DNA from: Trypanosoma brucei
Taxonomy: Eukaryota
DNA length: 64,000 nucleotides
NCBI GenBank assembly: GCA_000002445.1
Contig: CM000208.1
Coordinates: 1,344,001-1,408,000, forward strand
Reading direction: 5' to 3'
This document shows, in pieces, positions 16,819 to 37,261 of this stretch. The notes beneath the pieces were generated by a model that was not told the origin of the DNA, did not search any database, and was given only the letters and a program-made list of their open reading frames with translations. The translations under genes were made by a program, and so were the position numbers. The first letter of the stretch is position 1. Each line of letters begins with the position of its first letter.

Positions 16819-17680
16819 ATTTACACGGGGTGATTTAAAGGGGGATTTACTTGTGATGTGTACTTTGCGTGACTGAGAAGCGACTTGAATTCCTGTCACT
16901 GTATTCATTAAGTATTAATTTTTCTTTTTGATCTATTGGCGTTTGCACTGCCGCCCCTGTCGTCTCCGTCCAATTGACATTTCCCCAAAGGGCGTGTGAA
17001 ACGCGGGTCGGAAGCGGAGGGTTCCCCTAATATCGCTTTACTTTTTTTTTGTTTAATGGATCTATGTGTGCTAGGGGAGAGACATCCAATAAGCAGAGTG
17101 GGGAAAGGGGGGGTTAACCCTCTCCTTGGGGAGGTATAATGGAGTTGTTTATCACGTTCTCTTTGTACGTGGCTTGGGATTCTTATGGTGCGACGGTTTA
17201 CATTCGACAACTTACCATTGCTATTTTCACGTCCCCCTTCCTTTCTTTTTCTCGTTTCCCGCAAGAATTGTAAAAATTTCCTCACGCATGAGATTGCCAA
17301 ATGTAAGTTATTGCGAATGTGCTCCCCACAACGGGCCCCTTCGGGGTGCACAAGCAGAATGTTTTGCACTATCAAATAGCTTTGCGGTAGAGAACCTAAG
17401 CAACCTCTTCAGGAAAGGGTTTCATTTGGTGATAATTTGGCTTGGATGTCCCCGCGTCTCTCAATTTTTTTTTGTTGTTCTATCTTACTGTTTTTCCTTT
17501 TCTTTTCTTTCTTTGTTTCGTTTTACCGACACTAAAGGCGTCACTCTCCCTGCTTATTAGGAGAAATAGGGAGAGGGCGGAGGAGAATACTTCTTCGTTT
17601 TCGCTGGCGTGAGGCTAACCGACTTGTTTTGTCCCCTCGTTTGGCCGAAGGATAGGTTACCTGTAGTTTGGTGCGACTTT

Positions 17681-20600
17681 ATGCGTGTGACATGTGTAGT
17701 TGCTTGCGGCTTACGCTCTAGTAGTTCCGACCTGAAGCGGCGGCGAATACGTCAGTTGGAGCGGCAATATGGTCCCGCGTGGCGCTACACTGCAGGGTGG
17801 ACATCGCAACTGTCGCCAGTGGGTATGTTTGACGCATTGGAAGTTCCGGTTTTTCCACCAAACGTGGTGCAAACGCGTGAATTAGATCACGTGGGATGCG
17901 CTAGTGCACCGCGCACTACCGTGGTGTCAAGGGGCCTCGTACAAAACGGAAACCCTAGAGTAAAAGATTCACAACCAACTTCAGTTTTAGACGAAAATAA
18001 CGCTTACTTCAATCCACAACATGATGCAGGTACAAGTTCGAGCGATGACCCCTTGTTCGAGTTTTTAAGGCATGATGATGAACACAGTGCCCTTCTGCTA
18101 GCCATGTGGACTTCCCTTTATCGGTGCTGCGTTCACGCATCCGAGTTGTCCGAGTTTCTTGCATTTCGTGTGCGGTGGTTTCTGCATCATCTCATTCATA
18201 TGCGTGCAACAGCAGCCGCGGTCCGATTTTATCATCGTTTACTGTTGTTGGGCGTACATCTTCAAAAGAAGGATGTGTCGTTGTTGCTTAGCAGTTTACC
18301 CTATGAGCATTACGTAGTGAATGTGGACTTTAAAGGTGAAAGCAAGAAGAAATGTAGCCGTTTTCGTACGATGCGACAGGCTGATACCACTCATGTAGAC
18401 AAAAAGAGTGCTACAAATGGTGATAAGGGAGGTACTGTTGTTTTTAGCGGTGATGGAGGAACTGTTGGTGAGGAGGAGCGTCTTCTGTTCGCTTCAACGA
18501 TAACGTCCACCGGAGCGGACACTTCTTGCGATACTAGTGCTAGAGTGTGCCCGGCAGGAGACACATGCGGGGTGGAGTCGGTTGATTTTGAGTTGACACC
18601 AGCGGGTAGCCGATACTTGCGAGACCAACCAGAATGGGTTAAGCGCTGGGTTCTTTATGAGGCATCCATGGGTAATATTGATCTCTACGATGAGGAGAAC
18701 GCCACCACCCTGCGCGCCGACAAATATGTTGATTCATCTTCCGTGGGATTAGATTGTGGTGATGAATGCACACCATCTGAGGTGAAATGGGCCGAAGGGT
18801 GTATCGATGTGGTTACCCTTCTTAATCATTTGATGCTTCTGCATGATGGAAATCATTTAATCCACAGAGAAACTAGAAAACGTCGAGTGAATGGTAAGGG
18901 AAGATCTGGCATAACTCTAAGAGGAGAAATGCAGCGACACTATTGGGCAGAGGCCCTCCAGATTGCAGGTGCATTCCTCAGTGCGCGCAGCTCAAGGGGA
19001 CGGGAGAGAAAAGCGGAAGAGGGACAATATGAAGTGGGTTGCAGCGTACCGCCTGAGTTCCGCAGTGAGTTGTGTCGTGCGTTAGTTGCCGCTGGCAGTT
19101 GGAAGGTGGCACTCCGATGGCTCAAAGTTGCTGAGCAGTACAGAGTGGGTTTCACGCATAGTGAGTACGCGAGGATTTTCCTTTGTCTTGCTGAGTCAGA
19201 GCCTTGGGAAACATCTCGTGCTGCGGAACGTTTTGTTGCTCGTAATATGATTCCTCTCTTGCCAGAAGAAACCGTATGTGGTTACGCGTCCCGCGCCATG
19301 TGGTTGGCACATGTTTGTTCCCAAAGGGATAATAGGGTGGAAGAATGTTTGGAATTGATGGAATCTACCTCCGGAAATCTCCCTGCGTGCGTAAAACAAA
19401 GTATAGTGTACATCAAGCTCGCTGCGTCATTACTTCGCGTTGATGCTGACAGGTTTTTTGCCGCTGCTGCGCTCCAACAGTTTGAAGCGGCTTCAATTCG
19501 CTTAGGTGTGTTTCATCCCGCGGCCGATCTATCGCAGCGGCATTCCCCTCCCATACAGTTGGTGACTAGGGATATGGCGAGCGCCGGGAGCGGCGCTCTT
19601 CTTACTGTTCAACTGCAGGATTCCTTTGTCTTAGTGTCCATAGCCCTTCCACGCGTTGTAGAACTTGTATCGGTCGCCGCTGCTTCGCAGGAGGATGAAG
19701 TGCAGCTGGCCACCCTTCTGGCTGACGTGCTGTACGGTCCCAATGGTTTGTGGAAGTTTTTTTCTGATGTATGCCTTGTGGGAGAAAGCAAGCAGTTAAC
19801 AAGTCACCGGACTTCAGAAGTCGTGCGAATTTCTTTGTACATGTCACTGTGTCTACTAAAAATTGGTGTTGCGCTTTGCCGGGTGGTTGGGCACGAGAGG
19901 CAAGGCGTTCAAGGAAATCCTCATTTGAGGGAAAAACATTTGACGCTTATATTGGGATTGCTTGAGGAGAGTCTTGGCGCCATTCCGGCGCGAAACGCTG
20001 TGGAGATCAAAGATCGACGGATCATGTTATCACTGGTAGCCACATCGGCCAAGCTAACTAAACATGTTTTTCGACAAATCGGTGTTTATCCCTGCAATGA
20101 GAAAGTTATTTTCGGCTCATTCAGCGAGGAAACTTCTGAAACTGTTGCTTTGATGCTCCGTATTCACGTGCTACTGTGGCGGCGCGTTAGTTCACTCCGT
20201 AGGCATCTTCAGCTTGCCGCAGGGTCGGCGTTGCGTGCTGTGTTCCGACCAACTAGTGAGTTGGGTAAGCACGTACGTGGGCATATACCCCGGCATCAAC
20301 AGCAGGAACTAGACTCGATGCTTGCTTATGGGCGACTACGGAAGTACGGAGAGCGTAGGGCGGGTGCAGCGATCGCGACAAAATCAAAATCGGAGGCGCG
20401 TGTGCATTCACCCGAGGATGTTGCGCGAATCAAGGCGGTCGCGAAAACGCACAGAGTTGTTTATGCATTGTCTCTTCAGCACGTAAACAACGGTGCGGCG
20501 CTCGAGCGTGACTTAATAACTTATCTCAGTAGGGCAAGTTGGGACGGTGCTCTTACGATGCTGCACGTTTCTCTTCACCACTTACGCCTTCCGCATGGTA

Positions 20601-21766
20601 CATTTGGTCTCCCCTTCTTTGCGGGTGTGTTGGCTCGTTTGTGTAAAGCACCCCACAGAACGAAGTCGCTCTGGTTTCAAGCAATTGGGGTGTACTGGGA
20701 CGCCGTGGAGCACGTCCCTCGCCCACACGTATCCGCCAATACAAGTCATGTTGTGGATAGTAAGAGCCAACTCCGCTTACACGAGAGGAATGTTCTAACA
20801 CAACTGCTACTGCCATTACTGCGCTTTAGCGTGTCGACAAGGCAAAAGGAAATGGGATGGTCGTGGATGAGGCGTTGGGACTTGATGCACAAATCAGATG
20901 AACGTGATGTGGAGTATGAAGCACTGAGCGTGTGGGCACGATCGGTGCTTGAGGACCGCTCGGCACTCAAGAGGTGTCAACGGCTGATGGAAAAATATCA
21001 ATATCAACACATGAGGCAAAAAAACCTACCGATGATACCACCGCTGGAAAATATTCTGTGCGACGTTGCAGTCAATCATGCTGATTGGTGTGCTGCTCTC
21101 CACGCACTGGAGACGGTGTTTTGGACACCACAGCGTGGAGGTGACTTCATCACGACACCACTCCCGCCGCGAGCGGCAACTGCGGTGCTTCGTATACTTT
21201 GCAAGGCACCCACGAACTTGTGCAATACGGCTCGCCGTCTCCGAGAGATTCAGGGAAGCTGCTGGGATTTACGTAGCGCCAACAGTCTGCTTCTATTGTT
21301 GGTAAGGCAGAGGCGTTGGCAGCTTGCATTGCAACACGTTGCTGAAATGCTTCCAGTTGTGCAGAACGGCCGCCAAAAGTCTGATGTGGTGGGTGGGAAT
21401 AGCGTCTTCGATATGTGCTTGGAGGGTGATGGCAAGACAGAGCAGGCTTTATTCCTAGTTCATGGGTTGCGGGCGTGCGCAAATGGAGGTCGTGCGGAGG
21501 AGGCAGCGACGTTGTATGACCTTGTTAAACAATTGGCTGGCTTGGAAGCGGTGGTTCGTGCTGCGGACATAAACGTTGAGAGTAGTGTAACCTATGCTCT
21601 AAAGCGGCCGGAAGACATGTTGTTTTTCATGTGCAACCAAACTGATCAACCACAAGATACACTGGCATGTGACGAAGATGAGCGAATGCGCATGCTAGTT
21701 GGACAAGCGCGTGTTTACTTTCTCCGAGCGATGACTAAGAAAACTCTGCGTTGCAACAGGCGATAA
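17681..21766 (+). CDS. Large hypothetical protein (about 1361 aa) with an arginine-rich N-terminus (possible mitochondrial presequence)
   Basis: The ORF track starts at GTG 17609, and the first in-frame ATG is 17681 (MRVTCVVACGLRSSSSDLKRRRIRQ). It is a long unbroken ORF on the coding strand. Confidence 0.55.
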   Translation: MRVTCVVACGLRSSSSDLKRRRIRQLERQYGPAWRYTAGWTSQLSPVGMFDALEVPVFPPNVVQTRELDHVGCASAPRTTVVSRGLVQNGNPRVKDSQPTSVLDENNAYFNPQHDAGTSSSDDPLFEFLRHDDEHSALLLAMWTSLYRCCVHASELSEFLAFRVRWFLHHLIHMRATAAAVRFYHRLLLLGVHLQKKDVSLLLSSLPYEHYVVNVDFKGESKKKCSRFRTMRQADTTHVDKKSATNGDKGGTVVFSGDGGTVGEEERLLFASTITSTGADTSCDTSARVCPAGDTCGVESVDFELTPAGSRYLRDQPEWVKRWVLYEASMGNIDLYDEENATTLRADKYVDSSSVGLDCGDECTPSEVKWAEGCIDVVTLLNHLMLLHDGNHLIHRETRKRRVNGKGRSGITLRGEMQRHYWAEALQIAGAFLSARSSRGRERKAEEGQYEVGCSVPPEFRSELCRALVAAGSWKVALRWLKVAEQYRVGFTHSEYARIFLCLAESEPWETSRAAERFVARNMIPLLPEETVCGYASRAMWLAHVCSQRDNRVEECLELMESTSGNLPACVKQSIVYIKLAASLLRVDADRFFAAAALQQFEAASIRLGVFHPAADLSQRHSPPIQLVTRDMASAGSGALLTVQLQDSFVLVSIALPRVVELVSVAAASQEDEVQLATLLADVLYGPNGLWKFFSDVCLVGESKQLTSHRTSEVVRISLYMSLCLLKIGVALCRVVGHERQGVQGNPHLREKHLTLILGLLEESLGAIPARNAVEIKDRRIMLSLVATSAKLTKHVFRQIGVYPCNEKVIFGSFSEETSETVALMLRIHVLLWRRVSSLRRHLQLAAGSALRAVFRPTSELGKHVRGHIPRHQQQELDSMLAYGRLRKYGERRAGAAIATKSKSEARVHSPEDVARIKAVAKTHRVVYALSLQHVNNGAALERDLITYLSRASWDGALTMLHVSLHHLRLPHGTFGLPFFAGVLARLCKAPHRTKSLWFQAIGVYWDAVEHVPRPHVSANTSHVVDSKSQLRLHERNVLTQLLLPLLRFSVSTRQKEMGWSWMRRWDLMHKSDERDVEYEALSVWARSVLEDRSALKRCQRLMEKYQYQHMRQKNLPMIPPLENILCDVAVNHADWCAALHALETVFWTPQRGGDFITTPLPPRAATAVLRILCKAPTNLCNTARRLREIQGSCWDLRSANSLLLLLVRQRRWQLALQHVAEMLPVVQNGRQKSDVVGGNSVFDMCLEGDGKTEQALFLVHGLRACANGGRAEEAATLYDLVKQLAGLEAVVRAADINVESSVTYALKRPEDMLFFMCNQTDQPQDTLACDEDERMRMLVGQARVYFLRAMTKKTLRCNRR

Positions 21767-22568: not shown

Positions 22569-23414
22569 ATGGCACAGTCTTTGGTGTGGCGGTACTTGGG
22601 ACCGGAGGACACGCATCGGTGTCTCGATGCGCCTGATGTGCCTTCTGTTCGGAACCTGTTGGTTGAAATTGACGACGGAATGGATGGAAAGCTTATCAAC
22701 TGTCGCAACTACAATAAGGGGCAGCTGATGATTGTGCTAGACATGCTTGCGCATCTAATTGTGTTCACTAAAACATGTTCCATGTCGCTAGAGAAGGTTA
22801 GTACAATTGTGGGTATTATGCTGGAGTTGCACCGAGAGAGCATGTCGAATCAGTATACACGATCCCAATCGTATCACCGACTGCGTGAGCTGATGCTACT
22901 CCACAGTGTTCCCCGCCCACCGTTCTCATGTGGCATCTTTAGTGTGGCGGATGTACAGCATATAGACGAATATCTCTTATTGTCTTATTTCCGCCATTAC
23001 AAAATGTATGTGTACGCTTTCGTGCCTCAGCGTTTAGCGAATATTCACAGCGTTTCCGTCGGGCACAACCACTGTGTACCTCCTTTAGGACTCCCCGCCC
23101 TTACGACAGCGACGCCACGGGCAGAATGGATAGCGAAAGTGGAAGACACACACCGACAGATGGAGGAACGGCAGATGGAAGTGGAGGATGTGCGGTCTGC
23201 TGAATACGAGGAAGAATGGTTGAAACACCGCTACCTTAACGGCACGCACTACAGCGAGGGGTTGAGGGAACAGCTGCAGAGTATAAAGAGGGATGTTTCT
23301 GATAAAGCACTCAACCAACTGGATTTGATTGAGGCGCGTCTGGTGGAAATAGAGAAGAAGGTGGAGATAGTGCAGCAGCGACAGGATGGGAAGGGTGGTA
23401 AGCGAAAAAAATAG
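22569..23414 (+). CDS. Hypothetical protein, 281 aa, with a C-terminal coiled-coil / charged tail
   Basis: ATG at 22569. The C-terminus (EDTHRQMEERQMEVEDVRSAEYEEEWLKHRYL..LIEARLVEIEKKVEIVQQRQDGKGGKRKK) has heptad-like charge periodicity. Confidence 0.5.
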   Translation: MAQSLVWRYLGPEDTHRCLDAPDVPSVRNLLVEIDDGMDGKLINCRNYNKGQLMIVLDMLAHLIVFTKTCSMSLEKVSTIVGIMLELHRESMSNQYTRSQSYHRLRELMLLHSVPRPPFSCGIFSVADVQHIDEYLLLSYFRHYKMYVYAFVPQRLANIHSVSVGHNHCVPPLGLPALTTATPRAEWIAKVEDTHRQMEERQMEVEDVRSAEYEEEWLKHRYLNGTHYSEGLREQLQSIKRDVSDKALNQLDLIEARLVEIEKKVEIVQQRQDGKGGKRKK

Positions 23415-23838: not shown

Positions 23839-25455
23839 ATGGAGCGCGGAGGGCGCTGCCTCTTCAGGAGGTGGAGTACCCGCGCATTGCCCTCCGTGTC
23901 TCACACACTACGATGTCGTGGAACAATTTCTAACTCAGGTGGGGAGGGAAATGATGCAATCGCTGAACCTCGTCGCGTGCGTCTGGTGCCGTCTGCACCT
24001 CATGGGAACAATTCTTCGGAGCTATTTTCTGTCGGTGTGGATCCCAGAAGTCATACATGTGATCCCGATGATCCATATTCCCACATCCAAATATACAGAA
24101 AGGACATGGTAGCGGACGCCGGTGGTCGAGCGTTTCAACTAAGTGTTGATGTTCCGTTGAAAAAATTTGTGGACCTCTTCAGTGATTTCGATGGAAAACG
24201 TTGTAAGCTCTGCAACGAAAGCTACATGCAGTGGCATAGTCATAGCAGTGTTATTCCCCACTCAGGGAGGGAGGCACTTATGCTTGAGATGGTCCGTGCA
24301 TACTGCGGCCTACCGGAGGATATTGCAAAAATGTGGTGGCATCGACTCAATACGTCGCCCGCGTTCAATCGCATCCCGAAACTGAGTCATGACAATAGTC
24401 ACACCAGAAAGCGCAGGTTACAGTACCTTCTGAAATTTCTGAAAGATAGGGACGTGATCCGCGACACATTCAACGTTCACAACAGCTCTGGAACTGCTGG
24501 TCGTTCGTGGGAATTCGAACGTCTCGAATGGATTGGGGATAATGTTGTGAAGTATGTGTTTAACGATCGGTTTAATGTCATATTTCCTGTGCGTGAGGGC
24601 GGTATTCGGGGCCGATTGGGGTACGCGCAATTTATGATAGATGGCAATGATGGCTTGGCACGCGCCTATGACTACTTGGAGCTTCAGAAGCTGACTCTAA
24701 GTGACCGGGTTGTGAGCAAATTCAAGAGCGATGTGGTGGAGACATTGTTTGGTGAACTTCAGCTTTATATTTGGTCTTCAGAGACGGACGCCGGCACTAC
24801 CTGTTACCCACTTCCATTTACTGGCGAGATGTTTTCCCTTCGTGCTCTCGTGTGGCACGTGATGGAGGAGTTGGCACATGTAATGTTTATGTATCACGTG
24901 GAACACGCGCTTGCGGCTATTCAGCGTGTTGTAAGGGAAAATCAACTGCAATTTATCCGTGCAGATCCTGCACTGCGCGGTCATGCGGACCTGCAGAGTG
25001 AGTTGGCAAACACGGTTTACGCTAAAAAAGCTGCGTCTGGGCCAAGCAAACTCACGTCGACAAAAGTGTCTCCTGGTGCCCGTTTCAGGGACGGTGGTGC
25101 CTCGTTTTACCACGAAGCATCGAACTATGATGGTTTCAAACGTGTGTGCACTCTTGGGGGTCTCCTGCCCCGACCATTTTCACCCCGTGAGTTGACGTCC
25201 ACAACGTCTTTTCTTCCTCATTTGCAGGAAGACAGTGCGATGACACGCCGAGTGCCTGTGGACTGGACACGTAAACTTTTTGACGATTGCACTGGCAACG
25301 CCACGAAGAAGCCCGGAGCCCCCAACTTTTTACCATGGCAGGCCGTCACGCTACAGCCCCGTTCCCGTTGTTCTGCAGAGGAGGCTGGACGGTCAACTTC
25401 ACGCCTGGGTATTCCTGAATTGAAGGACGCACTACTAGTGGCCGAATTAGTTTAG
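23839..25455 (+). CDS. KREN-type mitochondrial RNA-editing endonuclease (U1-like C2H2 zinc finger plus RNase III domain); by synteny with the NLP gene probably KREN2/KREPB2, with KREN3/KREPB3 as the alternative
   Basis: The N-terminus is Arg-rich (MERGGRCLFRRWSTRALPSVSHTLRCRG), consistent with mitochondrial import. A U1-like zinc finger is present (CKLCNESYMQWHSHSSVIPH, about 24203..24262). The RNase III signature is present (ERLEWIGDNVVKYVFNDRF, about 24517..24573; compare the canonical ERLEFLGDA). ZnF plus RNase III is the editosome endonuclease architecture. Confidence 0.7.
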   Translation: MERGGRCLFRRWSTRALPSVSHTLRCRGTISNSGGEGNDAIAEPRRVRLVPSAPHGNNSSELFSVGVDPRSHTCDPDDPYSHIQIYRKDMVADAGGRAFQLSVDVPLKKFVDLFSDFDGKRCKLCNESYMQWHSHSSVIPHSGREALMLEMVRAYCGLPEDIAKMWWHRLNTSPAFNRIPKLSHDNSHTRKRRLQYLLKFLKDRDVIRDTFNVHNSSGTAGRSWEFERLEWIGDNVVKYVFNDRFNVIFPVREGGIRGRLGYAQFMIDGNDGLARAYDYLELQKLTLSDRVVSKFKSDVVETLFGELQLYIWSSETDAGTTCYPLPFTGEMFSLRALVWHVMEELAHVMFMYHVEHALAAIQRVVRENQLQFIRADPALRGHADLQSELANTVYAKKAASGPSKLTSTKVSPGARFRDGGASFYHEASNYDGFKRVCTLGGLLPRPFSPRELTSTTSFLPHLQEDSAMTRRVPVDWTRKLFDDCTGNATKKPGAPNFLPWQAVTLQPRSRCSAEEAGRSTSRLGIPELKDALLVAELV

Positions 25456-25957: not shown

Positions 25958-28831
25958 ATGTCACAGAAAGAGGAGAATAGCGTCAACGGCGATGAGACCA
26001 ATACAACCCTGCCGCGTGCGGTGTTAAAGACGCGTACAGCGTCTCAGCTCTACAAAGAAGGGGGGAGCGTAGGCACCATGGCGTCGTTTAACTCATTGCC
26101 GCAGGTTGAACAGCTGTTATTCAAGGTACAGGCAGCAGAAATGACCCTTCTCGCAGCACTTGATGTTGCTGAACGAAGTCCTGAAGATAAGAAAATATTT
26201 GGCCATGCCACACTTACCATGGCAGAGAACTACCTCTCGGAAATTATTTCCATCATTCCACACTGCAGTCGCTCGACTGACGCACCCCACCTTTCTATCA
26301 ACAGTTCCGCGATTCAGCGGCTCATTGCGTTGTATGGGGCGTCCGATGATGTCGTTAAGTTTGTCGCGCACCTTTCCACATCGCAGCCGAGAGTAGCTGA
26401 ATTATCTCCTCGTGACGTAACAACTGTAGTATACAACATTAGTGAGGTCGCTCGGCTGTTCAAGCAGTCTATGAAAGAGAGTGGAGAGCAGTGCGGTGTT
26501 TTCACCAAATCAACAACAAGCTTACAGCCTTCACCGATGAAGGAAAGTGAATCAGCCGTAGCTGATGAAGGGACTGTTCCTCCCGCACCAACGGCTGGCC
26601 GGAAACGAGGCCGACCTTCGCGGAATAAGTCTTCGGATACACCAGCGGAGCCTGGAGCTGAAGGTTCTCCTGAACACGGGACTTTCACGGGGGAGGGTGG
26701 CGCGGCGGCAAAGGATAAGAGGAAAAAATCTGAGGAGACTTCTTCTCGGAAACCGAAAAGTAACGAAGGAACACCGAGCGGTCCAAGAAAAATAAGTTAT
26801 TGTCGCCTACGTGCGCTGACAACCGCGGAAAAGAGAGTCACCACCAGTCTCAACCAGATAGTCCAGCTTCTGGGACATTTATATGCTCACCAATACAACG
26901 ATTTGTTGCCAGTGTTTGGATTTCTTGAGGCACGGGTGAAACAACTGCAAGAAACCATTGATGTGGAGCGTGCTGCCTTTGCAAAGAAAGATATCGCAAC
27001 GAGATCCCCAGAGCCTTTCATTGGGGTTTCAGTGCAGTCCATCATAGCTGCAATCCGATCTTCTCTTCACACTTACTCAACGGAGGAATGGTGTCGGCAA
27101 GAATTCGATGAGGACCTGCTTCACCCCGTAGCTCATGCGTGCATGACAGAGGTAAACCGCATTGAGGGTTTCGCAACCGAGCCTTTTGTAGGAATTACTG
27201 CTGAAGCACTAGCTGCAAAAATCGCCACTCGGAAGGCTGCACGCATCAAACTGGAGGAAAAGTGGGAGAAAGAGCGGGAACGTGCGAGGGAGAAGGAGGA
27301 GGCACAGGTTAAATACAACGAAGAACGACGTTGGCTGCGAGCGCGGTTTGGTGATATAGACAAGGCGAGCCTTGTAGAAGACACTTCTATAGATAATCCT
27401 GCTGTGTCTGCTCCTGTGTACTACAGCGATCTCCCGTTGCAAGATGTGGAATTGTATGAGCGGGCACTTTTTGTTTGGACGATGCTTGTGTCCGTTCCTC
27501 AAGCTTTGCGTCTTTCACAGATGCCCTTCAATATATTTCTGAAATCTGTTACCACGGGAGTTGGTGGAACTGATACACTGATTGAGGAAATTGTGAAGTC
27601 TTTGTTAGAGGTGCTAGTGGAAAACCTCCGTGCGGGCAACGGCTCACGAATCAACATCAAGGGAAAGTATTGGTTTGACGCCATGGTGGAGTTCGTTGCA
27701 GTGACAAGTGGAAACCGGAGGAAGCGGGATAACAAGCAGAAAAAGGACATCAAGGAGGAAGAAGAAGAGGAGGAGGAGGAAGAAGAGGAAGGGGAAGAAA
27801 CGGAGGATGAGACAGTTGAGGAACAGGAGGAGGATGAAGAAGAGGCGCAGGAAAAAATAGAGGGCAGTACTGACACAGAAAAAACCGGTAACGACCGAGA
27901 ACCCCAGAACTCTGAGGACTTGAAGCAAGATGTGGAAGAGGAAAAAAGTAAGGAAGAGAATGAAGGCGAAAATCTCGCCAACATGATCAGGGGGACCATG
28001 GAAAACGTGGCTGAGCTCCGCAACATGGCGACGTGGTTTAACATAAACTTACCTGATCGTCTCAACCTCCTGTATTACTTGGTGTTAGAAGCGCTGCATA
28101 CTCCCGTGGTGCAGGGCGAAGCCGAAAAGATGCGGAAAAGGTACGAGGAGCAACAGTTGCTCGTCGGAAAGTGCATCAAGGAAGTTTGTGAGGAGGCATG
28201 TAAAGAGTTCAAGGGCCTTGCCAGGAAACTAGCGGTGTCGAAATCTGAAGACGAGGAGCAGTCTGTCGAAGAGAAACGGAAAGAAATTCTGCAGGAGTGC
28301 AGTAACCGCCTCAAAAGTACTGTCGAGGAACAAATAGGGGTACAAGACGGTAAGGATGTTGGTACTATAATCCGTCCCATAGGCATGGACCGCTACAAGA
28401 GAGTGTACTGGCGTTTGCCATTTGATCGCCACATTACGGTTCAAAGTACACAGGCCACAAACTTGGATTTCCCAGCTCTGCGTGGTGTTACGTATTTGGC
28501 GGAGCGCACCTCCCACAGTTTCGCTGGAAACTTGCTTGATGACGATGATTGTGAAACAGGCGTGCAGGTGGGGAGCACCGAAAGCGCTAGTGCCCAGGGC
28601 AGTGCCAATGATCAGATACCTCAGAAGGTTTGGGGAACTGTGCCACTAACCTGCCTGGGTACTTTTATAGAAGGTTTGGATAGGCGTGGCGTTCGTGAAG
28701 GGGAGCTCAGGCGGAACCTGGAGATTTTGCAGCCGTACCTAGCAAGCATGAGCGAAATAACTGGGGGACGCATCACAAGATTCAGGTCTCAGACCTTCGG
28801 TTATCAGAACAAGCTAAGGCTCGAGTTGTGA
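25958..28831 (+). CDS. NLP: Chromatin protein with an AT-hook, a DDT-like domain, a poly-acidic tract and a WHIM/WSD motif. It is consistent with the T. brucei nucleoplasmin-like protein NLP, an ISWI-complex partner.
   Basis: AT-hook GRKRGRPSR (about 26596..26625). DDT-like helix LFVWTMLVSVPQALRLSQMPFNIFLKSV (about 27467..27550). E/D-rich run EEEEEEEEEEEEGEETEDETVEEQEEDEEE (27754..27855). WHIM-like GMDRYKRVYWRLPFDRHI (28381..28440). At 957 aa (about 106 kDa) it fits the reported size of NLP. I assigned it from memory. Confidence 0.65.
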   Translation: MSQKEENSVNGDETNTTLPRAVLKTRTASQLYKEGGSVGTMASFNSLPQVEQLLFKVQAAEMTLLAALDVAERSPEDKKIFGHATLTMAENYLSEIISIIPHCSRSTDAPHLSINSSAIQRLIALYGASDDVVKFVAHLSTSQPRVAELSPRDVTTVVYNISEVARLFKQSMKESGEQCGVFTKSTTSLQPSPMKESESAVADEGTVPPAPTAGRKRGRPSRNKSSDTPAEPGAEGSPEHGTFTGEGGAAAKDKRKKSEETSSRKPKSNEGTPSGPRKISYCRLRALTTAEKRVTTSLNQIVQLLGHLYAHQYNDLLPVFGFLEARVKQLQETIDVERAAFAKKDIATRSPEPFIGVSVQSIIAAIRSSLHTYSTEEWCRQEFDEDLLHPVAHACMTEVNRIEGFATEPFVGITAEALAAKIATRKAARIKLEEKWEKERERAREKEEAQVKYNEERRWLRARFGDIDKASLVEDTSIDNPAVSAPVYYSDLPLQDVELYERALFVWTMLVSVPQALRLSQMPFNIFLKSVTTGVGGTDTLIEEIVKSLLEVLVENLRAGNGSRINIKGKYWFDAMVEFVAVTSGNRRKRDNKQKKDIKEEEEEEEEEEEEGEETEDETVEEQEEDEEEAQEKIEGSTDTEKTGNDREPQNSEDLKQDVEEEKSKEENEGENLANMIRGTMENVAELRNMATWFNINLPDRLNLLYYLVLEALHTPVVQGEAEKMRKRYEEQQLLVGKCIKEVCEEACKEFKGLARKLAVSKSEDEEQSVEEKRKEILQECSNRLKSTVEEQIGVQDGKDVGTIIRPIGMDRYKRVYWRLPFDRHITVQSTQATNLDFPALRGVTYLAERTSHSFAGNLLDDDDCETGVQVGSTESASAQGSANDQIPQKVWGTVPLTCLGTFIEGLDRRGVREGELRRNLEILQPYLASMSEITGGRITRFRSQTFGYQNKLRLEL
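27754..27855 (+). repeat. GAG/GAA (poly-Glu) coding microsatellite inside the NLP-like gene
   Basis: gaggaagaagaagaggaggaggaggaagaagaggaagg... Confidence 0.8.
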
Positions 28832-29724: not shown

Positions 29725-30102
29725 ATGCGGACGATTGACTGCGAGTTCTCGCACTTCGCTGTACATCCGGGCCATGGCCGCCGCTACGTCCCGTTTGCCT
29801 TCTTATCAACGAAGCCTGTGCTGACATTTGCGCGCCCGAAGTGTTTCGCGATGTACATGCGCAAAAAGAACCCACGCTTTATTGCCTGGACCCGCACGTA
29901 CCGCCGCATTCATCGGAAGACGACGACCGACCGCGTGGGCCGCCGCCGTGCCGCCCGCACAGTGAGGACAGAGCGCGCCATCGTCGGTGCTGAGCTCTCC
30001 TACATTCAAGAAGTGCGAGCAAAGGCGAAGAAGGTTGACCGTACCGCCAAGGGCAAAGCCGTGCGTGAGGAGATGGCTGCTCGTAAGGCAGCGAAGAAAT
30101 AG
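29725..30102 (+). CDS. RPL24: 60S ribosomal protein L24 (eL24), copy 1
   Basis: 125 aa starting MRTIDCEFSHFAVHPGHGRRY. The eL24 / TRASH-type signature is present (C.F....I.PGHG; KKNPRFIAWTRTYRRIHRK compared with human KRNPRQINWTVLYRRKHKK). The ORF track begins upstream, and I moved the start to the eL24 N-terminal ATG. Confidence 0.85.
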   Translation: MRTIDCEFSHFAVHPGHGRRYVPFAFLSTKPVLTFARPKCFAMYMRKKNPRFIAWTRTYRRIHRKTTTDRVGRRRAARTVRTERAIVGAELSYIQEVRAKAKKVDRTAKGKAVREEMAARKAAKK

Positions 30103-30428: not shown

Positions 30429-31865
30429 ATGATATCTTACAAGCGGCGAAACATGTTCCTTGCAGATGGTAGACGAGTTTTGGTTGGAAACTTTATTATG
30501 TCCATTTCCACTATAATAGTTACCTTTTATCTCACGCAGGGGCACTTACAGGTGGGTCAGTGGCGCCTCCTGGATGACATCTCTCCGCGGTTGTCAGAGG
30601 CTGCGCGGAAGATTGGAATGCTTGAGGTTGAGTTGCCATATCCTTTCAACCACGTTAGCGCCGTTGTCGCCAGTCCAACAGGTATAGCAGACGCTGGTCA
30701 TAAGGTTATGCGTTTTTTTGGTACAAATTTGCGTTCCAACATCATAACGGAAAAAGTGAATGGGGAAGCAGCAAACTTGCTTGCTACTGGTTTTAGCAGT
30801 GAAAGTACAATATTGGCTCACCTGCTGTCGCCTAAGGCTGATGGACCCCTCGGAATAATGGGAATACTTCATCTGTGCTCGGCCACCAGCTGCATGGCCC
30901 CTTATTTCACACAACAATATGCAACTGTAACGGTACGGCCTTCAGGAAATTATCGCCTATTCGTAGGTGCACTTGTTTACGGAGACGTCTTCTTGGGTTC
31001 GGTCGTTGAGAATGACCTTGCCGCTCTTGATGTTGTGCTGCCTCGTGCCTCCAGGGGGAGGGAAGCAACAGGAGCTATGCCACTCCACGGCGTTGTTGGC
31101 GGGAGCTATGCGGGGAAGAGCGTGACTGTTAAGTGTTCGGTCTCAATCAATAGTTGTCAGTATGAGTTTCGAGACGATGACACTGACGCATCACATCCTT
31201 CAGTCACCGTCGTTCACCTGGATGACGTAAAGTTGGGCGAGGCCGAGCTCCCTGTGATGGGGTTTCGTGTGGTTCACATTGATCTTAATTCTGAAGAACA
31301 ACTTGCGATCGTGACTTATCTCACGGGTTTGTTGCACGTGTCCGCGAGGCCTGAGCATATCATTGTTACGCTCTACCCCTCACCCTTTCTCGAAGAGACT
31401 ATAACGGCTGTGGACGTTTTGAGAGTAAGTGTGCCTTACAATGTTTTTATCGAGGGCGGCAGGTGCAGGTTAACGACAAATTCATCAACTGTGCCCTCCG
31501 CTGAAGTTCTGCGCCTCGTTTTGCGTCGGGCAGGTACCTCAGCGTCATCTGCCCTCAACACTCGGAGCTACGCGGCCGAACCATTATGTGTCCTAGTACT
31601 GTCAAAGTCAATCACGTCGTTGTCACAACTGTTGGAGCATGTTGCACCGACCAAGCAGGAAGACGTTATGAAAACATTCCTGGGTACAAGCTTGGATCAG
31701 GGCAGTCACAGAGGAGTACCATGCAGAGGGAAACACAGCAAACCAAATGCTTTCAAATGGATCTTGCTAATAACAGTGCCGCTGCTGGTTGCTGGACTGC
31801 TCGCTTGCGGCATGCTTTATGGGAGAAGGCGTGTGCCGTTGTTGTGGGAGGACAAAAGACCATAA
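30429..31865 (+). CDS. Hypothetical type-I-like membrane protein (N-terminal signal-anchor, about 400-aa lumenal/extracellular domain, one C-terminal TM, short basic tail)
   Basis: N-terminal hydrophobic segment FIMSISTIIVTFYLTQ. C-terminal TM WILLITVPLLVAGLLACGMLYG followed by RRRVPLLWEDKRP. It lies between the two RPL24 copies. Confidence 0.5.
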   Translation: MISYKRRNMFLADGRRVLVGNFIMSISTIIVTFYLTQGHLQVGQWRLLDDISPRLSEAARKIGMLEVELPYPFNHVSAVVASPTGIADAGHKVMRFFGTNLRSNIITEKVNGEAANLLATGFSSESTILAHLLSPKADGPLGIMGILHLCSATSCMAPYFTQQYATVTVRPSGNYRLFVGALVYGDVFLGSVVENDLAALDVVLPRASRGREATGAMPLHGVVGGSYAGKSVTVKCSVSINSCQYEFRDDDTDASHPSVTVVHLDDVKLGEAELPVMGFRVVHIDLNSEEQLAIVTYLTGLLHVSARPEHIIVTLYPSPFLEETITAVDVLRVSVPYNVFIEGGRCRLTTNSSTVPSAEVLRLVLRRAGTSASSALNTRSYAAEPLCVLVLSKSITSLSQLLEHVAPTKQEDVMKTFLGTSLDQGSHRGVPCRGKHSKPNAFKWILLITVPLLVAGLLACGMLYGRRRVPLLWEDKRP

Positions 31866-33431: not shown

Positions 33432-34703
33432 ATGACATCCACCGCGACGGAGGTTACTCAGACCCAAAGTCTTGCAGCCGTACGAAACTTTATTCGTGTG
33501 GCCGTTTCGTGCGTCACTTACCTTCGTGGATTGTGCAGTGATGAATCGTATCAACCCCGTCAGTTTCTTGGACTGCAGCTGAAGCAGCTTGTTCGCTCAT
33601 CTGGAGATGCCGGTGCCATTTCACGCTGGATGGAAGAGGGTGCTTTCGACGCGCTCAACAGGGGTTACCTTAAGGAACTCTCACTTTGTGTTCACGAACC
33701 AAACTGCACTGAGTTACTTGAGAGATACTCGTTTATGGTGTCATACAGCCCCGGCGGCCAGCGGGCCGCACTCTCGCTTACAGGTGAATCGATGAAGGAA
33801 AACCTCAGTTGCTCCTTTGGCACAGTGGGAGGAGGAGGAGGAGGAGATAAAATGGGTAAAGTATTGAGAAAACGTCGCTGCCGTCAGGAGGTACAGCAAG
33901 CGCTGGCAAGTATCATCACCAAACTCATGGAGGTTGTGGAGGGACTTCCACCGTTACTGTGCGAGCGTGTCCTCACCATGCAACTCAAATACTACGAGGA
34001 TGTAACACCTCCCTCTTATGAACCCCCTTGCTTTGCCCCTGCCAGTCCCAGCACTGTTGCGGCTCATTACAGAGAAGAAAAGAACAGCACCGATATCGCC
34101 ACACTCGACACGGGTCACCACACGCTCTCTATTAACATTCGACACAAATTCTTCGAACAACTGCGGCCACACAATTTGTCGCAAATGAACATGTACGATG
34201 CGAGCTCCTCGTCGGCGCGAAGGGACCCGACGAAGGGAGGCAAGGATGACGCTGCAGCTTATGGTTGTAGGAACGAGAGAGGTACCACAGAAAATCGCAC
34301 CAGTAGGGGGATTACCAACGACTGGGCCCATGCAGATGAAGTTGCGTTCCTTGTCTTCACAAGTTTTATATTAACAAAGTCTCCCACGGTATCCCGTGGC
34401 CGTATAACCATGGGTGAAATAGAAGAGTACCTTCGTGTCGCTTGTCCCATGGAAATTGAGATGAAACAGGTTCAATCAATGATGCGGCGACTTGAAACTA
34501 GCGGTATCGTTTCGTTAGAAGCACCGCTTGAATGGGCTGTGAGTGAGCAACGTTCTGCAGCGGTAGTAAGTGCAATACTTGAACGACAAGATGTAGTCTC
34601 TCTGCTCAGCGTTCAAACACGCATGGATTTGCGATATCTCACCACTGGACGGAAGGTATCCCGTCTTAGCTCTTCTAAAGGGCGTAAGCGAGTTCGTGCA
34701 TAG
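33432..34703 (+). CDS. HOP1: HORMA-domain protein, meiotic HOP1-like
   Basis: The N-terminal roughly 200 aa has the HORMA pattern (SLAAVRNFIRVAVSCVTYLRGLCSDESY..., then the safety-belt region). The C-terminal part is divergent and includes a poly-Gly segment (GGGGGGGD). In my recollection the T. brucei meiotic HOP1 lies in this chromosome neighbourhood. Confidence 0.65.
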   Translation: MTSTATEVTQTQSLAAVRNFIRVAVSCVTYLRGLCSDESYQPRQFLGLQLKQLVRSSGDAGAISRWMEEGAFDALNRGYLKELSLCVHEPNCTELLERYSFMVSYSPGGQRAALSLTGESMKENLSCSFGTVGGGGGGDKMGKVLRKRRCRQEVQQALASIITKLMEVVEGLPPLLCERVLTMQLKYYEDVTPPSYEPPCFAPASPSTVAAHYREEKNSTDIATLDTGHHTLSINIRHKFFEQLRPHNLSQMNMYDASSSSARRDPTKGGKDDAAAYGCRNERGTTENRTSRGITNDWAHADEVAFLVFTSFILTKSPTVSRGRITMGEIEEYLRVACPMEIEMKQVQSMMRRLETSGIVSLEAPLEWAVSEQRSAAVVSAILERQDVVSLLSVQTRMDLRYLTTGRKVSRLSSSKGRKRVRA

Positions 34704-35187: not shown

Positions 35188-36228
35188 ATGCGGTCGGTAG
35201 GTGGTGCCGTTGGTGCTACATGCTGCTTAGTTCCGTCTGTGGGTACCCAAAGGCGTCAGTATCATGCTTTTCAGTTCGCAGGGTTCCATGGGTGGAAGAT
35301 ACCATACGAGGGTAAAACGAAAGTGACGAAAGAGGAGCTAGACAACATTCGTTTCTTCACGCAGCGGTCCAAGGATAAATGGGACTACCACCGAGTCGAT
35401 GAAAACATTAACTCGAGTTCGGAGTTCCGCAAAACACATGACAGACCAGAGTTTGAACAGGGTATGCGTGAAGACAACTCAACGACCGATCACGGAGACT
35501 TACACACGCCCAAAAAGTACCGTCTGTATGAACACTTTGATGAGTATACAAAACCTGGGGTGAACAAAAAGGTTGCTGCTTGCTATGCCGTGAAAGAGCA
35601 GTGGGATGCTGAGGAGTTTTATTACCCTGGCGAGGCATGGAAGAAGAACCGACCCGGTTTCCGGAGTGTACCTAAGGAACTCTTGAACCGTCAAACGTGG
35701 TATCATTGGTCCGACACTATCATGAAGTGGGATGAGATTCAACCCACTATACGAACCCGTTCCTGGAACCCTGACTGGCCACCTCCTGGATATAAAGTGC
35801 CATCAATGCATTGCAAGAAGGAGTTTGTATTTGGTGTGGAGGATCCTGCTGTTGTGTCCGAAGTAGAGCGCTACAATTGGTATCGATCTTGGAGTGATAG
35901 TAATCTACGTTGTGGTTGGAAGGACATATGGTTGTTCGGTGTGCTGTTCGGAGCTATGTATTATATGGCCCGTAACGCGCTCGACATCGTTAGCATGCGT
36001 GCCATGATGAGCAACATGTTTTACCCGGGCCGCCAGTTTATCCGCTCTTTTGGCACACCGAGGGATTGGGAAACTGATGTTTTTTGGTGGCAACGCCCAC
36101 TTGAGGAATTTCCCAATCAGGGCGAAGTGTGGTACATTAATGAAAGCCGTTACAAGTACATTAACTATATAAAAAAACGTGACGCGATGGAACGGGCCTT
36201 AGCGGAAGCAGAAATGAATGCAGTTTAG
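35188..36228 (+). CDS. Hypothetical protein, 346 aa, with a presequence-like N-terminus and one predicted TM helix (possibly mitochondrial)
   Basis: N-terminus MRSVGGAVGATCCLVPSVGTQRRQY. TM helix IWLFGVLFGAMYYMARNALDIV. It is rich in W/Y. Confidence 0.5.
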   Translation: MRSVGGAVGATCCLVPSVGTQRRQYHAFQFAGFHGWKIPYEGKTKVTKEELDNIRFFTQRSKDKWDYHRVDENINSSSEFRKTHDRPEFEQGMREDNSTTDHGDLHTPKKYRLYEHFDEYTKPGVNKKVAACYAVKEQWDAEEFYYPGEAWKKNRPGFRSVPKELLNRQTWYHWSDTIMKWDEIQPTIRTRSWNPDWPPPGYKVPSMHCKKEFVFGVEDPAVVSEVERYNWYRSWSDSNLRCGWKDIWLFGVLFGAMYYMARNALDIVSMRAMMSNMFYPGRQFIRSFGTPRDWETDVFWWQRPLEEFPNQGEVWYINESRYKYINYIKKRDAMERALAEAEMNAV

Positions 36229-37261
36229 ATGTTTTTGTTAGTAGGGCTGGCGAGTGACTGGTTTTCCCTACCTTACCTCAGTAAATACCCTGAAGAGAGA
36301 GAGCAAGAGGTTAGGCGAGTGGAGTAGTATGATATGGGGAGCTTAACGAAGGGTGATTATTTTACTATTATCATTGTCTGGAGAGGGGAAAAGCGGGACG
36401 CTGTACTTAACAGTGGACAGAACAGTGAAGTAGGAACATGTAGTGTAGCAGTCGTAGAATATTGAGGAGTAAGGTAATATAGTTCGGTACTGAGAAATGG
36501 AGGGAAACGGTCTCCCTTTCAAACACTTTCTTTTTTTACTTCTTCCTTGCGGTTCCGGCTCATTGAAACGTGTTCAATATGATTTGCGTAGGCGAATTAT
36601 GTGCATCTTTGTGCCGCTGTGTTCGCGTGTGGGTAGTACTTGGAAGGACGCCGTGCTGCAGTGCATCATCAGAAGTTTTGTTCACTGTCATCCCCTTCTA
36701 CTTTCTTTTTGTCATTCTCAGCGCCGAGCTTCAACCGGGAAGAGGCGTTGTGGGGCGGTGACGTATAACATTATCGTTTAGTGAGTTCCTTTTTTGGTTG
36801 TTTGCTAGTTGGAACCGAGCACTGTGGTAGTTGAGAGGTGTGATGATTACTGGAGGAACAATTGATGAGGTGTATCCGGTGCCTTAAATTCGGTGGTCTC
36901 GCATTTATGCGATAGTGTCATTCTGATATGATCGCACACCTCCACTGTTTCAGTGGTGGCACTTGACAACTTCAGCACATACCTTCAAACTTTCTTCGCT
37001 TCATACCGGAGCGAAGCTAAACCACAAACATTGGCGTTTCACCTTCTTCGTACTACACGTTGGAAGGGCTCAACGCTTCGTGTTGCCAATTCTTGAGGAT
37101 TTTGTTTCCCCTCCCGCACGATTTCCTTGCGCTGTCTAGTTCATCAAAACTCTTATTTTATTTTATTTCTTGCATGGTTGTTGCCCTTCTGTCTTGTCCA
37201 TTCCCATTCAGTAGTGTTGTAGTTTTTGTAACTCTGTGGGTGAAAGAAGGGGGGGGAGCAT

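What the first reader, a model, noticed from the sequence alone, without database searches (positions are those of the whole stretch)
25958..28831. AT-hook plus DDT-like plus poly-acidic plus WHIM-motif protein (NLP-like ISWI partner)
Four chromatin-associated modules appear in one 957-aa ORF: an AT-hook (GRKRGRPSR), a DDT-like helix (LFVWTMLVSVPQALRLSQMPFNIFLKSV), a 30-residue Glu/Asp tract, and a WHIM/WSD-type motif (GMDRYKRVYWRLPFDRHI). DDT and WHIM domains are the hallmarks of ISWI-binding BAZ/WSTF/Ioc3-type subunits. In T. brucei the nucleoplasmin-like protein NLP is an ISWI partner that controls VSG expression sites. The DDT/WHIM assignment made here by eye would mechanistically explain that interaction.
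Basis: partly seen in the sequence, partly recalled or inferred. Interest (0 to 1): 0.55.

Follow-up and report, generated by a model that had tools for sequence, protein, structure and literature searches.

The report
Trypanosome NLP: Acf1-like ISWI partner
This gene is the already characterised Trypanosoma brucei chromatin protein NLP, and its DDT and WHIM motifs are real and mark it as the trypanosome version of the Acf1/BAZ-type partner of the ISWI remodeller, but that domain assignment has already been published for the T. cruzi orthologue.

Summary
It is T. brucei NLP (Tb927.10.5450). Both published RNAi primers match the window exactly, 835 bp apart as published. Length, mass and AT-hook position also agree with the 2010 paper.

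The DDT/WHIM reading holds:
- Pfam WSD (WHIM2) passes its curated cutoff in this protein.
- DDT is sub-threshold here but passes in 5 of 6 orthologues at the homologous position.
- WHIM1 appears weakly between them.
- An NLP-family profile retrieves WAC-DDT-WHIM1-WSD (Acf1-type), DDT-PHD-WSD and BAZ1A proteins from 1.84 billion sequences.
- Profile-profile alignment with Acf1-type proteins gives 99.4% probability (E 2.5e-21) over NLP aa 497-927.

NLP therefore most likely binds ISWI through a DDT-WHIM module, as Acf1, Itc1 and Ioc3 do. The direct contact is inferred; structure models were too poor to test it.

This is not new. DDT and WSD were reported for T. cruzi NLP in 2020, and databases label the T. 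vivax and T. congolense orthologues "WHIM2 domain-containing".

Smaller additions from this work:
- The "nucleoplasmin-like domain" is really DDT plus an acidic linker.
- The canonical AT-hook occurs only in T. brucei among 15 orthologues.
- Deep-branching relatives carry a PHD finger in the linker.

The parts
25958..28831 (+). Complete NLP coding sequence (957 aa plus stop), T. brucei Tb927.10.5450
   Evidence: ORF listing. Published RNAi primers match exactly at 27480-27494 (+) and 28300-28314 (-), giving the 835 bp stated in PMC3064810. The computed mass of 107.3 kDa equals the published 107 kDa.
26015..26515 (+). N-terminal helical domain, aa 20-186, conserved in the NLP orthologues; function unknown; not a WAC domain
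   Evidence: The only confidently modelled part (pLDDT about 85-93). Conserved in all 15 NLP-family orthologues. No Pfam hit. No PDB fold match with E below 1. Not aligned to the WAC domain in hhalign.
26519..26809 (+). Disordered basic Ser/Pro/Gly-rich linker, aa 188-284, including KDKRKK
   Evidence: pLDDT below 50 and no secondary structure. Composition. Poorly conserved apart from a basic RKR-type patch.
26597..26623 (+). AT-hook GRKRGRPSR, aa 214-222; canonical RGRP core with basic flanks; found only in T. brucei among the sampled orthologues
   Evidence: Position, equal to the published AT-hook at 214-226. Expected by chance 0.010 times per protein. T. congolense has TKRGRGSRR and T. vivax KRKRLSQ; none of the 14 orthologues has GRP at this site.
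26804..27187 (+). Conserved helical region, aa 283-410 (GRLRALT..EKK; DEDLLHP..NRIEGF); function unknown
   Evidence: Dense invariant columns. Helices modelled at pLDDT 55-80. No Pfam hit.
27200..27349 (+). Long charged helix or coiled coil, aa 415-464
   Evidence: Single helix 415-464 in the model. Published coiled-coil prediction at 429-458.
27446..27706 (+). DDT domain, aa 497-583 (Pfam match aa 501-555 = window 27458-27622, plus the following conserved helix WFDAMVEFVAV)
   Evidence: Pfam DDT 14.8 bits here. Orthologues score 23.2-26.4 bits, at or above the cutoff of 22, in 5 of 6 cases. Aligned to the DDT domain of Acf1-type proteins in hhalign. Helices 497-511, 524-532, 540-558 and 572-583 appear in the model at low confidence.
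27740..27967 (+). Acidic Glu/Asp-rich disordered linker, aa 595-670, encoded by an imperfect GAA/GAG repeat
   Evidence: 25 of 30 residues are D/E at aa 600-629. Tandem GAR repeats at 27753-27853. Present at the same position in all NLP orthologues and in Acf1-type hits P0047 and P0048. Lies within the published 'nucleoplasmin-like domain' 497-647.
27971..28117 (+). WHIM1 motif region, aa 672-720 (core WFNINLPDRLNLLYYLVLEAL)
   Evidence: Pfam WHIM1 is sub-threshold in four orthologues (17.4, 17.2, 12.7 and 11.7 bits against 19.1) at the homologous site. Aligned to the WHIM1 segment of Acf1-type proteins and of BAZ1A. W693, N695, R701, N703 and L704 are invariant in 15 orthologues.
28103..28336 (+). 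Long helices between WHIM1 and WSD, aa 716-793
   Evidence: Helices 716-760 and 770-793, pLDDT 56-75. Aligned collinearly with the corresponding spacer of Acf1-type proteins.
28373..28723 (+). WSD / WHIM2 (D-TOX E) domain, aa 806-922, with the G-x-D-R...YW signature (IGMDRYKRVYWRLPFD) and a variable insert at about aa 845-888
   Evidence: Pfam PF15613 31.7 bits against a cutoff of 25.4, E 1.7e-7. Scores are 32.8-44 bits in all five full-length orthologues from the first search. G809, D811, R812, R815, W818 and R819 are invariant.
28754..28828 (+). Conserved basic C-terminal tail, aa 933-957 (GRITRFRSQTFGYQNKLRLEL)
   Evidence: T940, R941, Y949 and N951 are invariant in 15 orthologues. A similar R.TR.R...Y.N.L ending occurs in Papus, the euglenid relatives and the Acf1-type hits. 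Its identity, possibly WHIM3-like, was not established.

Best explanation
The ORF encodes T. brucei NLP, the largest non-catalytic subunit of the single major trypanosome ISWI complex. Its C-terminal half (aa ~497-930) is a collinear DDT - acidic linker - WHIM1 - long helices - WSD/WHIM2 module, homologous to that of the Acf1/Itc1/BAZ/Ioc3-type ISWI accessory subunits. In other eukaryotes this helical module binds the SLIDE region of ISWI and linker DNA. By analogy, NLP docks on TbISWI (which has HAND and SLIDE domains) through DDT/WHIM and helps position the remodeller on chromatin. The disordered basic linker, which in T. brucei includes a canonical AT-hook, adds low-affinity DNA contacts. 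The acidic linker may contact histones. The NLP-family-specific N-terminal and middle domains probably hold the other subunits (RCCP, FYRP) or provide targeting. Loss of NLP therefore resembles loss of ISWI in the derepression of silent VSG expression sites. Shown here: the identity of the gene and the homology and order of the domains. Shown in the literature: physical association with ISWI and the silencing phenotype. Inferred: that the DDT/WHIM module is the ISWI-binding surface, and the roles of the other regions.
For: Identity: exact primer matches 835 bp apart, and 957 aa, AT-hook at 214-226 and 107 kDa as published. Domains: WSD above the Pfam cutoff. DDT hits 7 of 7 family members and is above the cutoff in 5 of 6 orthologues. 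WSD hits all six full-length members of that seven-sequence set, and WHIM1 hits 4 of 7 weakly. An exhaustive profile search found 53 hits. Beyond the NLP orthologues these include proteins with WAC+DDT+(WHIM1)+WSD, DDT+PHD+WSD and WHIM1+WSD+PHD+bromodomain (BAZ1A) architectures. hhalign of 15 NLPs against 3 WAC-DDT-WSD proteins gives 99.4% probability, E 2.5e-21, 340 columns, NLP aa 497-927. Association with ISWI: tandem affinity purification in T. brucei (PMC4646403) and affinity purification with mass spectrometry in T. cruzi (PMC7233268). TbISWI has HAND and SLIDE domains. DDT and WHIM form the SLIDE-binding pocket in other systems (review PMC8536118).
Against: DDT is below Pfam's threshold in the T. 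brucei protein itself (14.8 against 22 bits), and WHIM1 is not detected in it directly. Both AlphaFold models are of low confidence over this module (pLDDT 52.6 and 46.4). Fold searches against the PDB gave nothing with E below 1. Sequence profiles did not reach any DDT/WHIM structure in the PDB, so the three-dimensional module and the contact with SLIDE are untested. The acidic linker contributes some of the hhalign score. NLP lacks the WAC, PHD and bromodomain parts of Acf1/BAZ proteins.
Confidence: 0.85

Rival explanations
1. NLP is primarily a nucleoplasmin-type histone chaperone. Its 'nucleoplasmin-like domain' (aa 497-647) would bind and deposit histones as nucleoplasmin does.
For: The original description reported a weak MyHits nucleoplasmin match (e = 2.3e-3) and a Glu-rich tract. 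The acidic tract is real and positionally conserved. Histones H2A, H2B and H4 co-purify with the complex.
Against: There is no Pfam nucleoplasmin hit at E up to 10 in this protein, or at E up to 1 in any of 7 family members. The region aa 497-647 is accounted for by the DDT domain (501-555) plus the acidic linker. It is predicted helical and then disordered, not a beta-sandwich (low confidence). The same acidic linker occurs in Acf1-type proteins. [quoted passage not shown]
Confidence: 0.07
2. NLP acts mainly as an AT-hook DNA-binding repressor that recognises AT-rich repeats (177-bp and 50-bp) on its own. Its association with ISWI would be secondary, and the DDT/WHIM similarity functionally irrelevant.
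For: NLP was first isolated by DNA affinity on 177-bp repeats and is enriched on simple-sequence repeats in ChIP. The AT-hook matches the canonical core and is unlikely by chance.
Against: The AT-hook core is absent from all 14 other orthologues, including T. congolense and T. vivax. The DDT, WHIM1 and WSD residues, by contrast, are invariant. NLP is a stoichiometric-looking ISWI partner in both T. brucei and T. cruzi, and T. cruzi NLP has no AT-hook. A single AT-hook normally acts as an auxiliary DNA contact.
Confidence: 0.08
3. The DDT/WHIM resemblance is a chance or low-complexity artefact.
For: DDT is sub-threshold in this protein. The acidic tract draws spurious hits in PDB searches.
Against: WSD is above the curated cutoff in the window protein and in all five full-length orthologues from the first search, and in 19 more distant relatives scanned. 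The domain order is collinear. The search is reciprocal: the NLP profile finds proteins whose Pfam DDT and WSD scores are strong (51.3 and 72 bits in P0047). hhalign gives 99.4%.
Confidence: 0.01

Closest known systems
T. brucei NLP (Tb927.10.5450) and its T. cruzi orthologue, subunits of the trypanosome ISWI complex (Narayanan 2011, PMC3064810; Stanne 2015, PMC4646403; Diaz-Olmos 2020, PMC7233268)
   Same: It is this gene: the primers, length, AT-hook position and mass are identical. The DDT and WSD domains and their link to ISWI SLIDE binding were already described for the T. cruzi protein.
   Different: The T. brucei papers describe it as AT-hook plus 'nucleoplasmin-like domain' with no significant homology to known ISWI partners. 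The analysis here shows that this description is superseded for the T. brucei protein as well.
Acf1 / Itc1 / BAZ1A-BAZ1B (WAC-DDT-WHIM) ISWI accessory subunits
   Same: Collinear DDT - acidic linker - WHIM1 - helical spacer - WSD/WHIM2 module (hhalign 99.4%), and partnership with an ISWI ATPase.
   Different: NLP has no WAC domain, PHD finger or bromodomain. It has instead two NLP-family-specific conserved regions (aa 20-186 and 283-410) and, in T. brucei only, an AT-hook.
Yeast Ioc3 (ISW1a), the structurally solved DDT/WHIM subunit bound to Isw1 HAND-SANT-SLIDE
   Same: An accessory subunit that has the DDT/WHIM helical module but lacks PHD and bromodomain. It is the mechanistic template for SLIDE and linker-DNA binding (general knowledge; review).
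   Different: No sequence-profile or fold link to any DDT/WHIM structure in the PDB could be obtained here. The structural equivalence is untested.
Euglenozoan DDT-PHD-WSD proteins (Euglena longa, Papus ankaliazontas and unnamed metagenomic relatives)
   Same: These are the closest relatives outside the full-length NLP orthologues found by the NLP profile. They share DDT, WHIM1-like, WSD and the C-terminal R.TR.R..Y.N.L tail.
   Different: They carry a PHD finger inside the DDT-WHIM1 linker, where NLP has only the acidic tract with no Cys or His at aa 556-690.
Nucleoplasmin / nucleophosmin histone chaperones
   Same: A long poly-Glu/Asp tract.
   Different: No nucleoplasmin core domain is detectable. 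The protein is about five times larger, and the region so named is DDT plus linker.

Membership tests
DDT/WHIM (BAZ/WAL, Acf1/Itc1/Ioc3-type) ISWI accessory subunits | DDT domain (Pfam PF02791) | tested here: met
   The window protein scores 14.8 bits at aa 501-555, below the cutoff of 22. Five of 6 orthologues score 23.2-26.4 bits at the homologous site, and 7 of 7 members hit at E up to 1. The region aligns to the DDT domain of Acf1-type proteins. Met at family level, marginal for the single sequence.
DDT/WHIM (BAZ/WAL, Acf1/Itc1/Ioc3-type) ISWI accessory subunits | WHIM1 motif (PF15612) between DDT and WHIM2 | tested here: inconclusive
   Not reported for the window protein. Sub-threshold in 4 orthologues (17.4, 17.2, 12.7 and 11.7 bits against 19.1). 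hhalign does place NLP aa 672-717 on the WHIM1 segment of Acf1-type proteins and of BAZ1A.
DDT/WHIM (BAZ/WAL, Acf1/Itc1/Ioc3-type) ISWI accessory subunits | WSD / WHIM2 (PF15613) with the G-x-D-R...YW signature | tested here: met
   31.7 bits against a cutoff of 25.4, aa 806-922. Scores of 32.8-44 bits in all five full-length orthologues from the first search. The G809-x-D811-R812...W818 residues are invariant.
DDT/WHIM (BAZ/WAL, Acf1/Itc1/Ioc3-type) ISWI accessory subunits | Collinear order DDT -> WHIM1 -> WHIM2 in one polypeptide | tested here: met
   Positions. A single collinear hhalign alignment covers NLP 497-927.
DDT/WHIM (BAZ/WAL, Acf1/Itc1/Ioc3-type) ISWI accessory subunits | Stable physical association with an ISWI ATPase | not testable with these tools
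   From the literature only: tandem affinity purification in T. brucei (PMC4646403) and affinity purification with mass spectrometry in T. cruzi (PMC7233268).
DDT/WHIM (BAZ/WAL, Acf1/Itc1/Ioc3-type) ISWI accessory subunits | DDT and WHIM motifs fold into one helical module that contacts SLIDE and linker DNA | tested here: inconclusive
   AlphaFold models have pLDDT 52.6 (full length) and 46.4 (aa 484-957). Foldseek against the PDB gives no hit with E below 1. No complex modelling tool was available.
Acf1/BAZ1 subfamily | N-terminal WAC DNA-binding domain (PF10537) | tested here: not met
   No hit in NLP or any orthologue. The hhalign alignment with WAC-containing proteins starts only at the DDT domain.
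BAZ subfamily | C-terminal PHD finger and bromodomain | tested here: not met
   No PHD or bromodomain hit. The protein ends 35 residues after WSD.
Nucleoplasmin/nucleophosmin | Nucleoplasmin core (pentamer-forming beta-sandwich) domain | tested here: not met
   No Pfam nucleoplasmin match at E up to 10, or at E up to 1 in 7 members. The named region is predicted helical and then disordered (low confidence).
AT-hook proteins | R-G-R-P core flanked by basic residues | tested here: met
   GRKRGRPSRNK at aa 214-224, with a chance expectation of 0.010. Pfam's AT-hook model gave no reported hit, which is usual for so short a motif.
AT-hook proteins | Conservation of the motif among orthologues, as expected for a functionally required element of the family | tested here: not met
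   The GRP core is absent at this site in all 14 orthologues. Only a basic patch is kept.

The most novel reading that the evidence does not exclude
The canonical AT-hook is a recent acquisition of the T. brucei lineage, laid on an ancient Acf1-like ISWI subunit. T. congolense has KRGRG and T. vivax KRKRL at the same site. The AT-hook would help redirect a housekeeping remodeller to the AT-rich 177-bp and 50-bp repeats and so to the silencing of VSG expression sites and minichromosomes. In parallel, the NLP orthologues lack the PHD finger that their Papus and euglenid relatives carry in the DDT-WHIM1 linker, leaving only the acidic tract that was mistaken for a nucleoplasmin domain.
Probability: 0.25. 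Interest if true: 0.4.

Novelty: already known. Interest (0 to 1): 0.15.

Why it matters
The finding does not reveal a new system. It confirms that a well-studied regulator of antigenic variation is the trypanosome counterpart of the Acf1/BAZ-type ISWI subunit. The practical value is a corrected annotation for the T. brucei protein: "nucleoplasmin-like" is a misnomer, because that region is a DDT domain plus an acidic linker. It also gives a precise domain map for truncation and point-mutation experiments. The main targets are the GMDRY..YW signature, the DDT helices, the T. brucei-only AT-hook, and the two conserved regions of unknown function that may hold RCCP and FYRP.

Tried and rejected
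1. A sequence search of the single protein against the PDB returned only acidic-tract noise.
2. Profile searches of the full alignment, the DDT sub-alignment and the WHIM1-WSD sub-alignment against the PDB reached no DDT/WHIM structure. The hits were designed helical repeats and coiled coils.
3. The AlphaFold2 full-length model (7 sequences) had pLDDT 52.6, and the cropped aa 484-957 model had 46.4. Foldseek against the PDB gave nothing with E below 1 for either, so no structural conclusion was drawn.
4. A word-indexed homologue search with the C-terminal 268 aa found nothing. The search with aa 1-595 returned only the same six proteins.
Acidic false positives were recognised by the matched profile region (hits limited to about 575-667, for example P0049-P0051, were ignored).
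6. The exact protein sequence is not in the protein collection, so identity was established from the published primers instead.
7. Aravind and Iyer 2012, the WHIM definition paper, is not held in the library. The contact residues it describes could not be checked.
8. The nucleoplasmin reading was considered and rejected.
9. The antisense 188-aa ORF at 27499-28065 was rejected as the mirror image of the GAA/GAG repeat.
Full report
**Observation.** The window holds a 957-aa ATG-initiated ORF at 25958-28831 on the + strand. An in-frame stop lies 19 codons upstream with no earlier ATG.
- AT-hook GRKRGRPSR at aa 214-222.
- The DDT-like stretch at aa 504-531.
- An acidic tract with 25 of 30 Glu/Asp at aa 600-629.
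- GMDRYKRVYWRLPFDRHI at aa 809-826.

The acidic tract is encoded by an imperfect GAA/GAG repeat at 27753-27853. All 21 ORFs of at least 250 aa in the window are on the + strand, as expected for a trypanosomatid polycistronic unit.

**Identity.** The best homologues are annotated 'nucleoplasmin-like protein (NLP)' in T. grayi, T. theileri, T. rangeli and T. conorhini, and 'ISWI complex protein' in T. cruzi, at 43-48% identity. The paper that defined T. brucei NLP (Tb927.10.5450; PMC3064810) gives these properties: 957 aa, AT-hook at residues 214-226, a Glu-rich region at 600-671, a predicted mass of 107 kDa, and an 835-bp RNAi fragment with printed primers. Both primers match the window exactly and uniquely, at 27480-27494 (+) and 28300-28314 (-). 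They span exactly 835 bp. The computed mass is 107.3 kDa. The ORF is therefore T. brucei NLP. The exact sequence is absent from the protein collection, so the identification rests on these primer and property matches. The upstream ORF has a sub-threshold RNase III match. The gene numbered immediately before NLP, Tb927.10.5440, is the editing endonuclease KREN2, which is consistent with the locus.

**The DDT/WHIM claim.**
- In the window protein, Pfam WSD (WHIM2, PF15613) scores 31.7 bits against a curated cutoff of 25.4, over aa 806-922.
- Across the family the picture is firm. DDT hits 7 of 7 members, and 5 of 6 orthologues exceed the cutoff (23.2-26.4 bits) at the homologous position.
- WSD exceeds the cutoff in all five full-length orthologues from the first search (32.8-44 bits).
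- WHIM1 (PF15612) appears just below threshold in four of them (best 17.4 against 19.1). It lies between DDT and WSD, at the site of T. brucei WFNINLPDRLNLLYYLVLEAL.

**Reciprocal test.** A profile of seven NLPs was searched without a word index against 1.84 billion representative proteins. It returned 53 hits with E up to 1e-3.
- About a dozen are full-length NLP orthologues. The named ones are T. vivax and T. congolense (both 'WHIM2 domain-containing protein' in UniRef) and Leptomonas NLP.
- The more distant hits have textbook ISWI-accessory architectures. P0047, P0048 and Balamuthia P0052 are WAC+DDT+(WHIM1)+WSD. Euglena longa, Papus and one unnamed relative are DDT+PHD+WSD. A moth BAZ1A is WHIM1+WSD+PHD+bromodomain.
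- hhalign of 15 NLP orthologues against three WAC-DDT-WSD proteins gives 99.4% probability, E 2.5e-21, over 340 collinear columns. These span NLP aa 497-927 and run DDT, acidic linker, WHIM1, helical spacer, WSD.
- Against the single BAZ1A sequence, the WHIM1-to-WSD part aligns with E 1.2e-4.

The homology of the C-terminal half of NLP to the DDT/WHIM module is therefore established at sequence level.

**What could not be established.** The three-dimensional module and its contact with ISWI remain untested.
- Only shallow alignments were allowed for structure prediction, and both models were poor over this region (mean pLDDT 52.6 and 46.4).
- Foldseek against the PDB returned nothing with E below 1.
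- Sequence profiles did not reach any DDT/WHIM structure in the PDB.

**Mechanism.** In other eukaryotes the DDT domain and WHIM motifs form one helical module. It binds the SLIDE domain of ISWI and linker DNA, and has been proposed to act as a spacing ruler (review PMC8536118). TbISWI has HAND and SLIDE domains, and NLP co-purifies with it together with RCCP and FYRP (PMC4646403). The same four proteins co-purify in T. cruzi (PMC7233268). The best-supported explanation is that NLP is the Acf1/Itc1/Ioc3-equivalent subunit and docks on ISWI through DDT/WHIM. This accounts for the shared phenotype of expression-site derepression. That step is inferred from homology, not shown.

**Other regions.**
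- aa 20-186 is a confidently modelled helical domain (pLDDT about 85-93). It is conserved throughout the NLP orthologues and has no Pfam or PDB match.
- aa 283-410 is a second conserved helical region.
- aa 415-464 is a long charged helix.

None of these aligns with the WAC domain. I suggest they are candidates for binding RCCP and FYRP or for targeting, but this is speculation.

**Corrections to the older description.**
- *The 'nucleoplasmin-like domain'.* The published domain (aa 497-647) coincides with the DDT domain (501-555) plus the first part of the acidic linker. No nucleoplasmin profile matches this protein or any relative. The same acidic linker sits between DDT and WHIM1 in Acf1-type proteins. 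The nucleoplasmin label is a misnomer.
- *The AT-hook.* It is a good canonical motif (chance expectation 0.010), but it is not conserved. None of 14 orthologues has the GRP core there. T. congolense reads TKRGRGSRR and T. vivax KRKRLSQ. It is an accessory feature limited to T. brucei among the sampled species, sitting in a disordered basic linker. It cannot explain the conserved ISWI partnership.

**Novelty.** The 2010 and 2015 T. brucei papers did not recognise the DDT/WHIM module, and stated that the ISWI partners lack significant homology to known ISWI-associated proteins. Diaz-Olmos et al. 2020 did report DDT and WSD domains in T. cruzi NLP, and cited SLIDE-DDT binding as the rationale. 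Public databases already name the T. vivax and T. congolense orthologues by their WHIM2 domain. The incremental points from this analysis are:
- the quantitative link to Acf1-type proteins;
- the reassignment of the 'nucleoplasmin-like' region;
- the restriction of the AT-hook to T. brucei;
- a PHD finger in the DDT-WHIM1 linker of Papus and euglenid relatives that the NLP orthologues lack;
- a conserved C-terminal R.TR.R..Y.N.L tail shared with distant relatives.

**Verdict.** Interest is low (0.15).

Noticed in passing
window 26597-26623 (NLP aa 214-222): The canonical AT-hook core RGRP is found only in the T. brucei protein among 15 NLP orthologues. T. congolense has TKRGRGSRR, T. vivax has KRKRLSQ, and the stercorarian species keep only RKR. 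It may be a lineage-specific gain linked to binding of the AT-rich 177-bp and 50-bp repeats.
   Followed up: partly
window 26015-26515 (NLP aa 20-186): A confidently modelled N-terminal helical domain (pLDDT about 85-93) is conserved in all 15 NLP orthologues. It has no Pfam match and no PDB fold match with E below 1. It takes the place of the WAC domain of Acf1-type proteins but does not align to it.
   Followed up: partly
window 28754-28828 (NLP aa 933-957); P0027, P0031, P0041, P0047 C-termini: A conserved basic C-terminal tail (R.TR.R....GY.NKL) recurs at the extreme C-terminus of Papus, the euglenid relatives and the WAC-DDT-WSD proteins. It may correspond to a further WHIM-type motif; this was not established.
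   Followed up: partly
P0043 (Euglena longa) aa 722-765; P0027 (Papus) aa 542-583; P0031 aa 695-739: Deep-branching euglenozoan relatives of NLP carry a PHD finger inside the DDT-WHIM1 linker, flanked by acidic stretches. T. brucei NLP has only the acidic tract there, with no Cys or His in aa 556-690. This suggests the PHD finger was lost in the lineage leading to the NLP orthologues.
   Followed up: partly
window 27499-28065 (- strand): A 188-aa antisense ORF rich in poly-Ser lies opposite the acidic tract. It is the reverse-complement shadow of the GAA/GAG repeat (27753-27853), not a gene.
   Followed up: yes
window 23839-25455 (+): The 538-aa ORF immediately upstream has an RNase III-like signature (ERLEWIGDN) and a sub-threshold Pfam Ribonuclease_3 hit (16.8 bits, E 0.012). 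The gene numbered just before NLP, Tb927.10.5440, is the RNA-editing endonuclease KREN2 according to PMC12936278, so this ORF is probably KREN2. That is inferred from gene numbering only.
   Followed up: partly
window 22569-23414, 29725-30102, 33432-34703, 37060-39012 (+): Neighbouring genes with clear Pfam domains: flagellar C1a-32/CLAMP, ribosomal protein L24e, a HORMA-domain protein, and an endonuclease/exonuclease/phosphatase-family protein. Several large neighbours have no Pfam domain at all (10449-14549, 14920-16818, 17609-21766, 30429-31865, 35188-36228).
   Followed up: no
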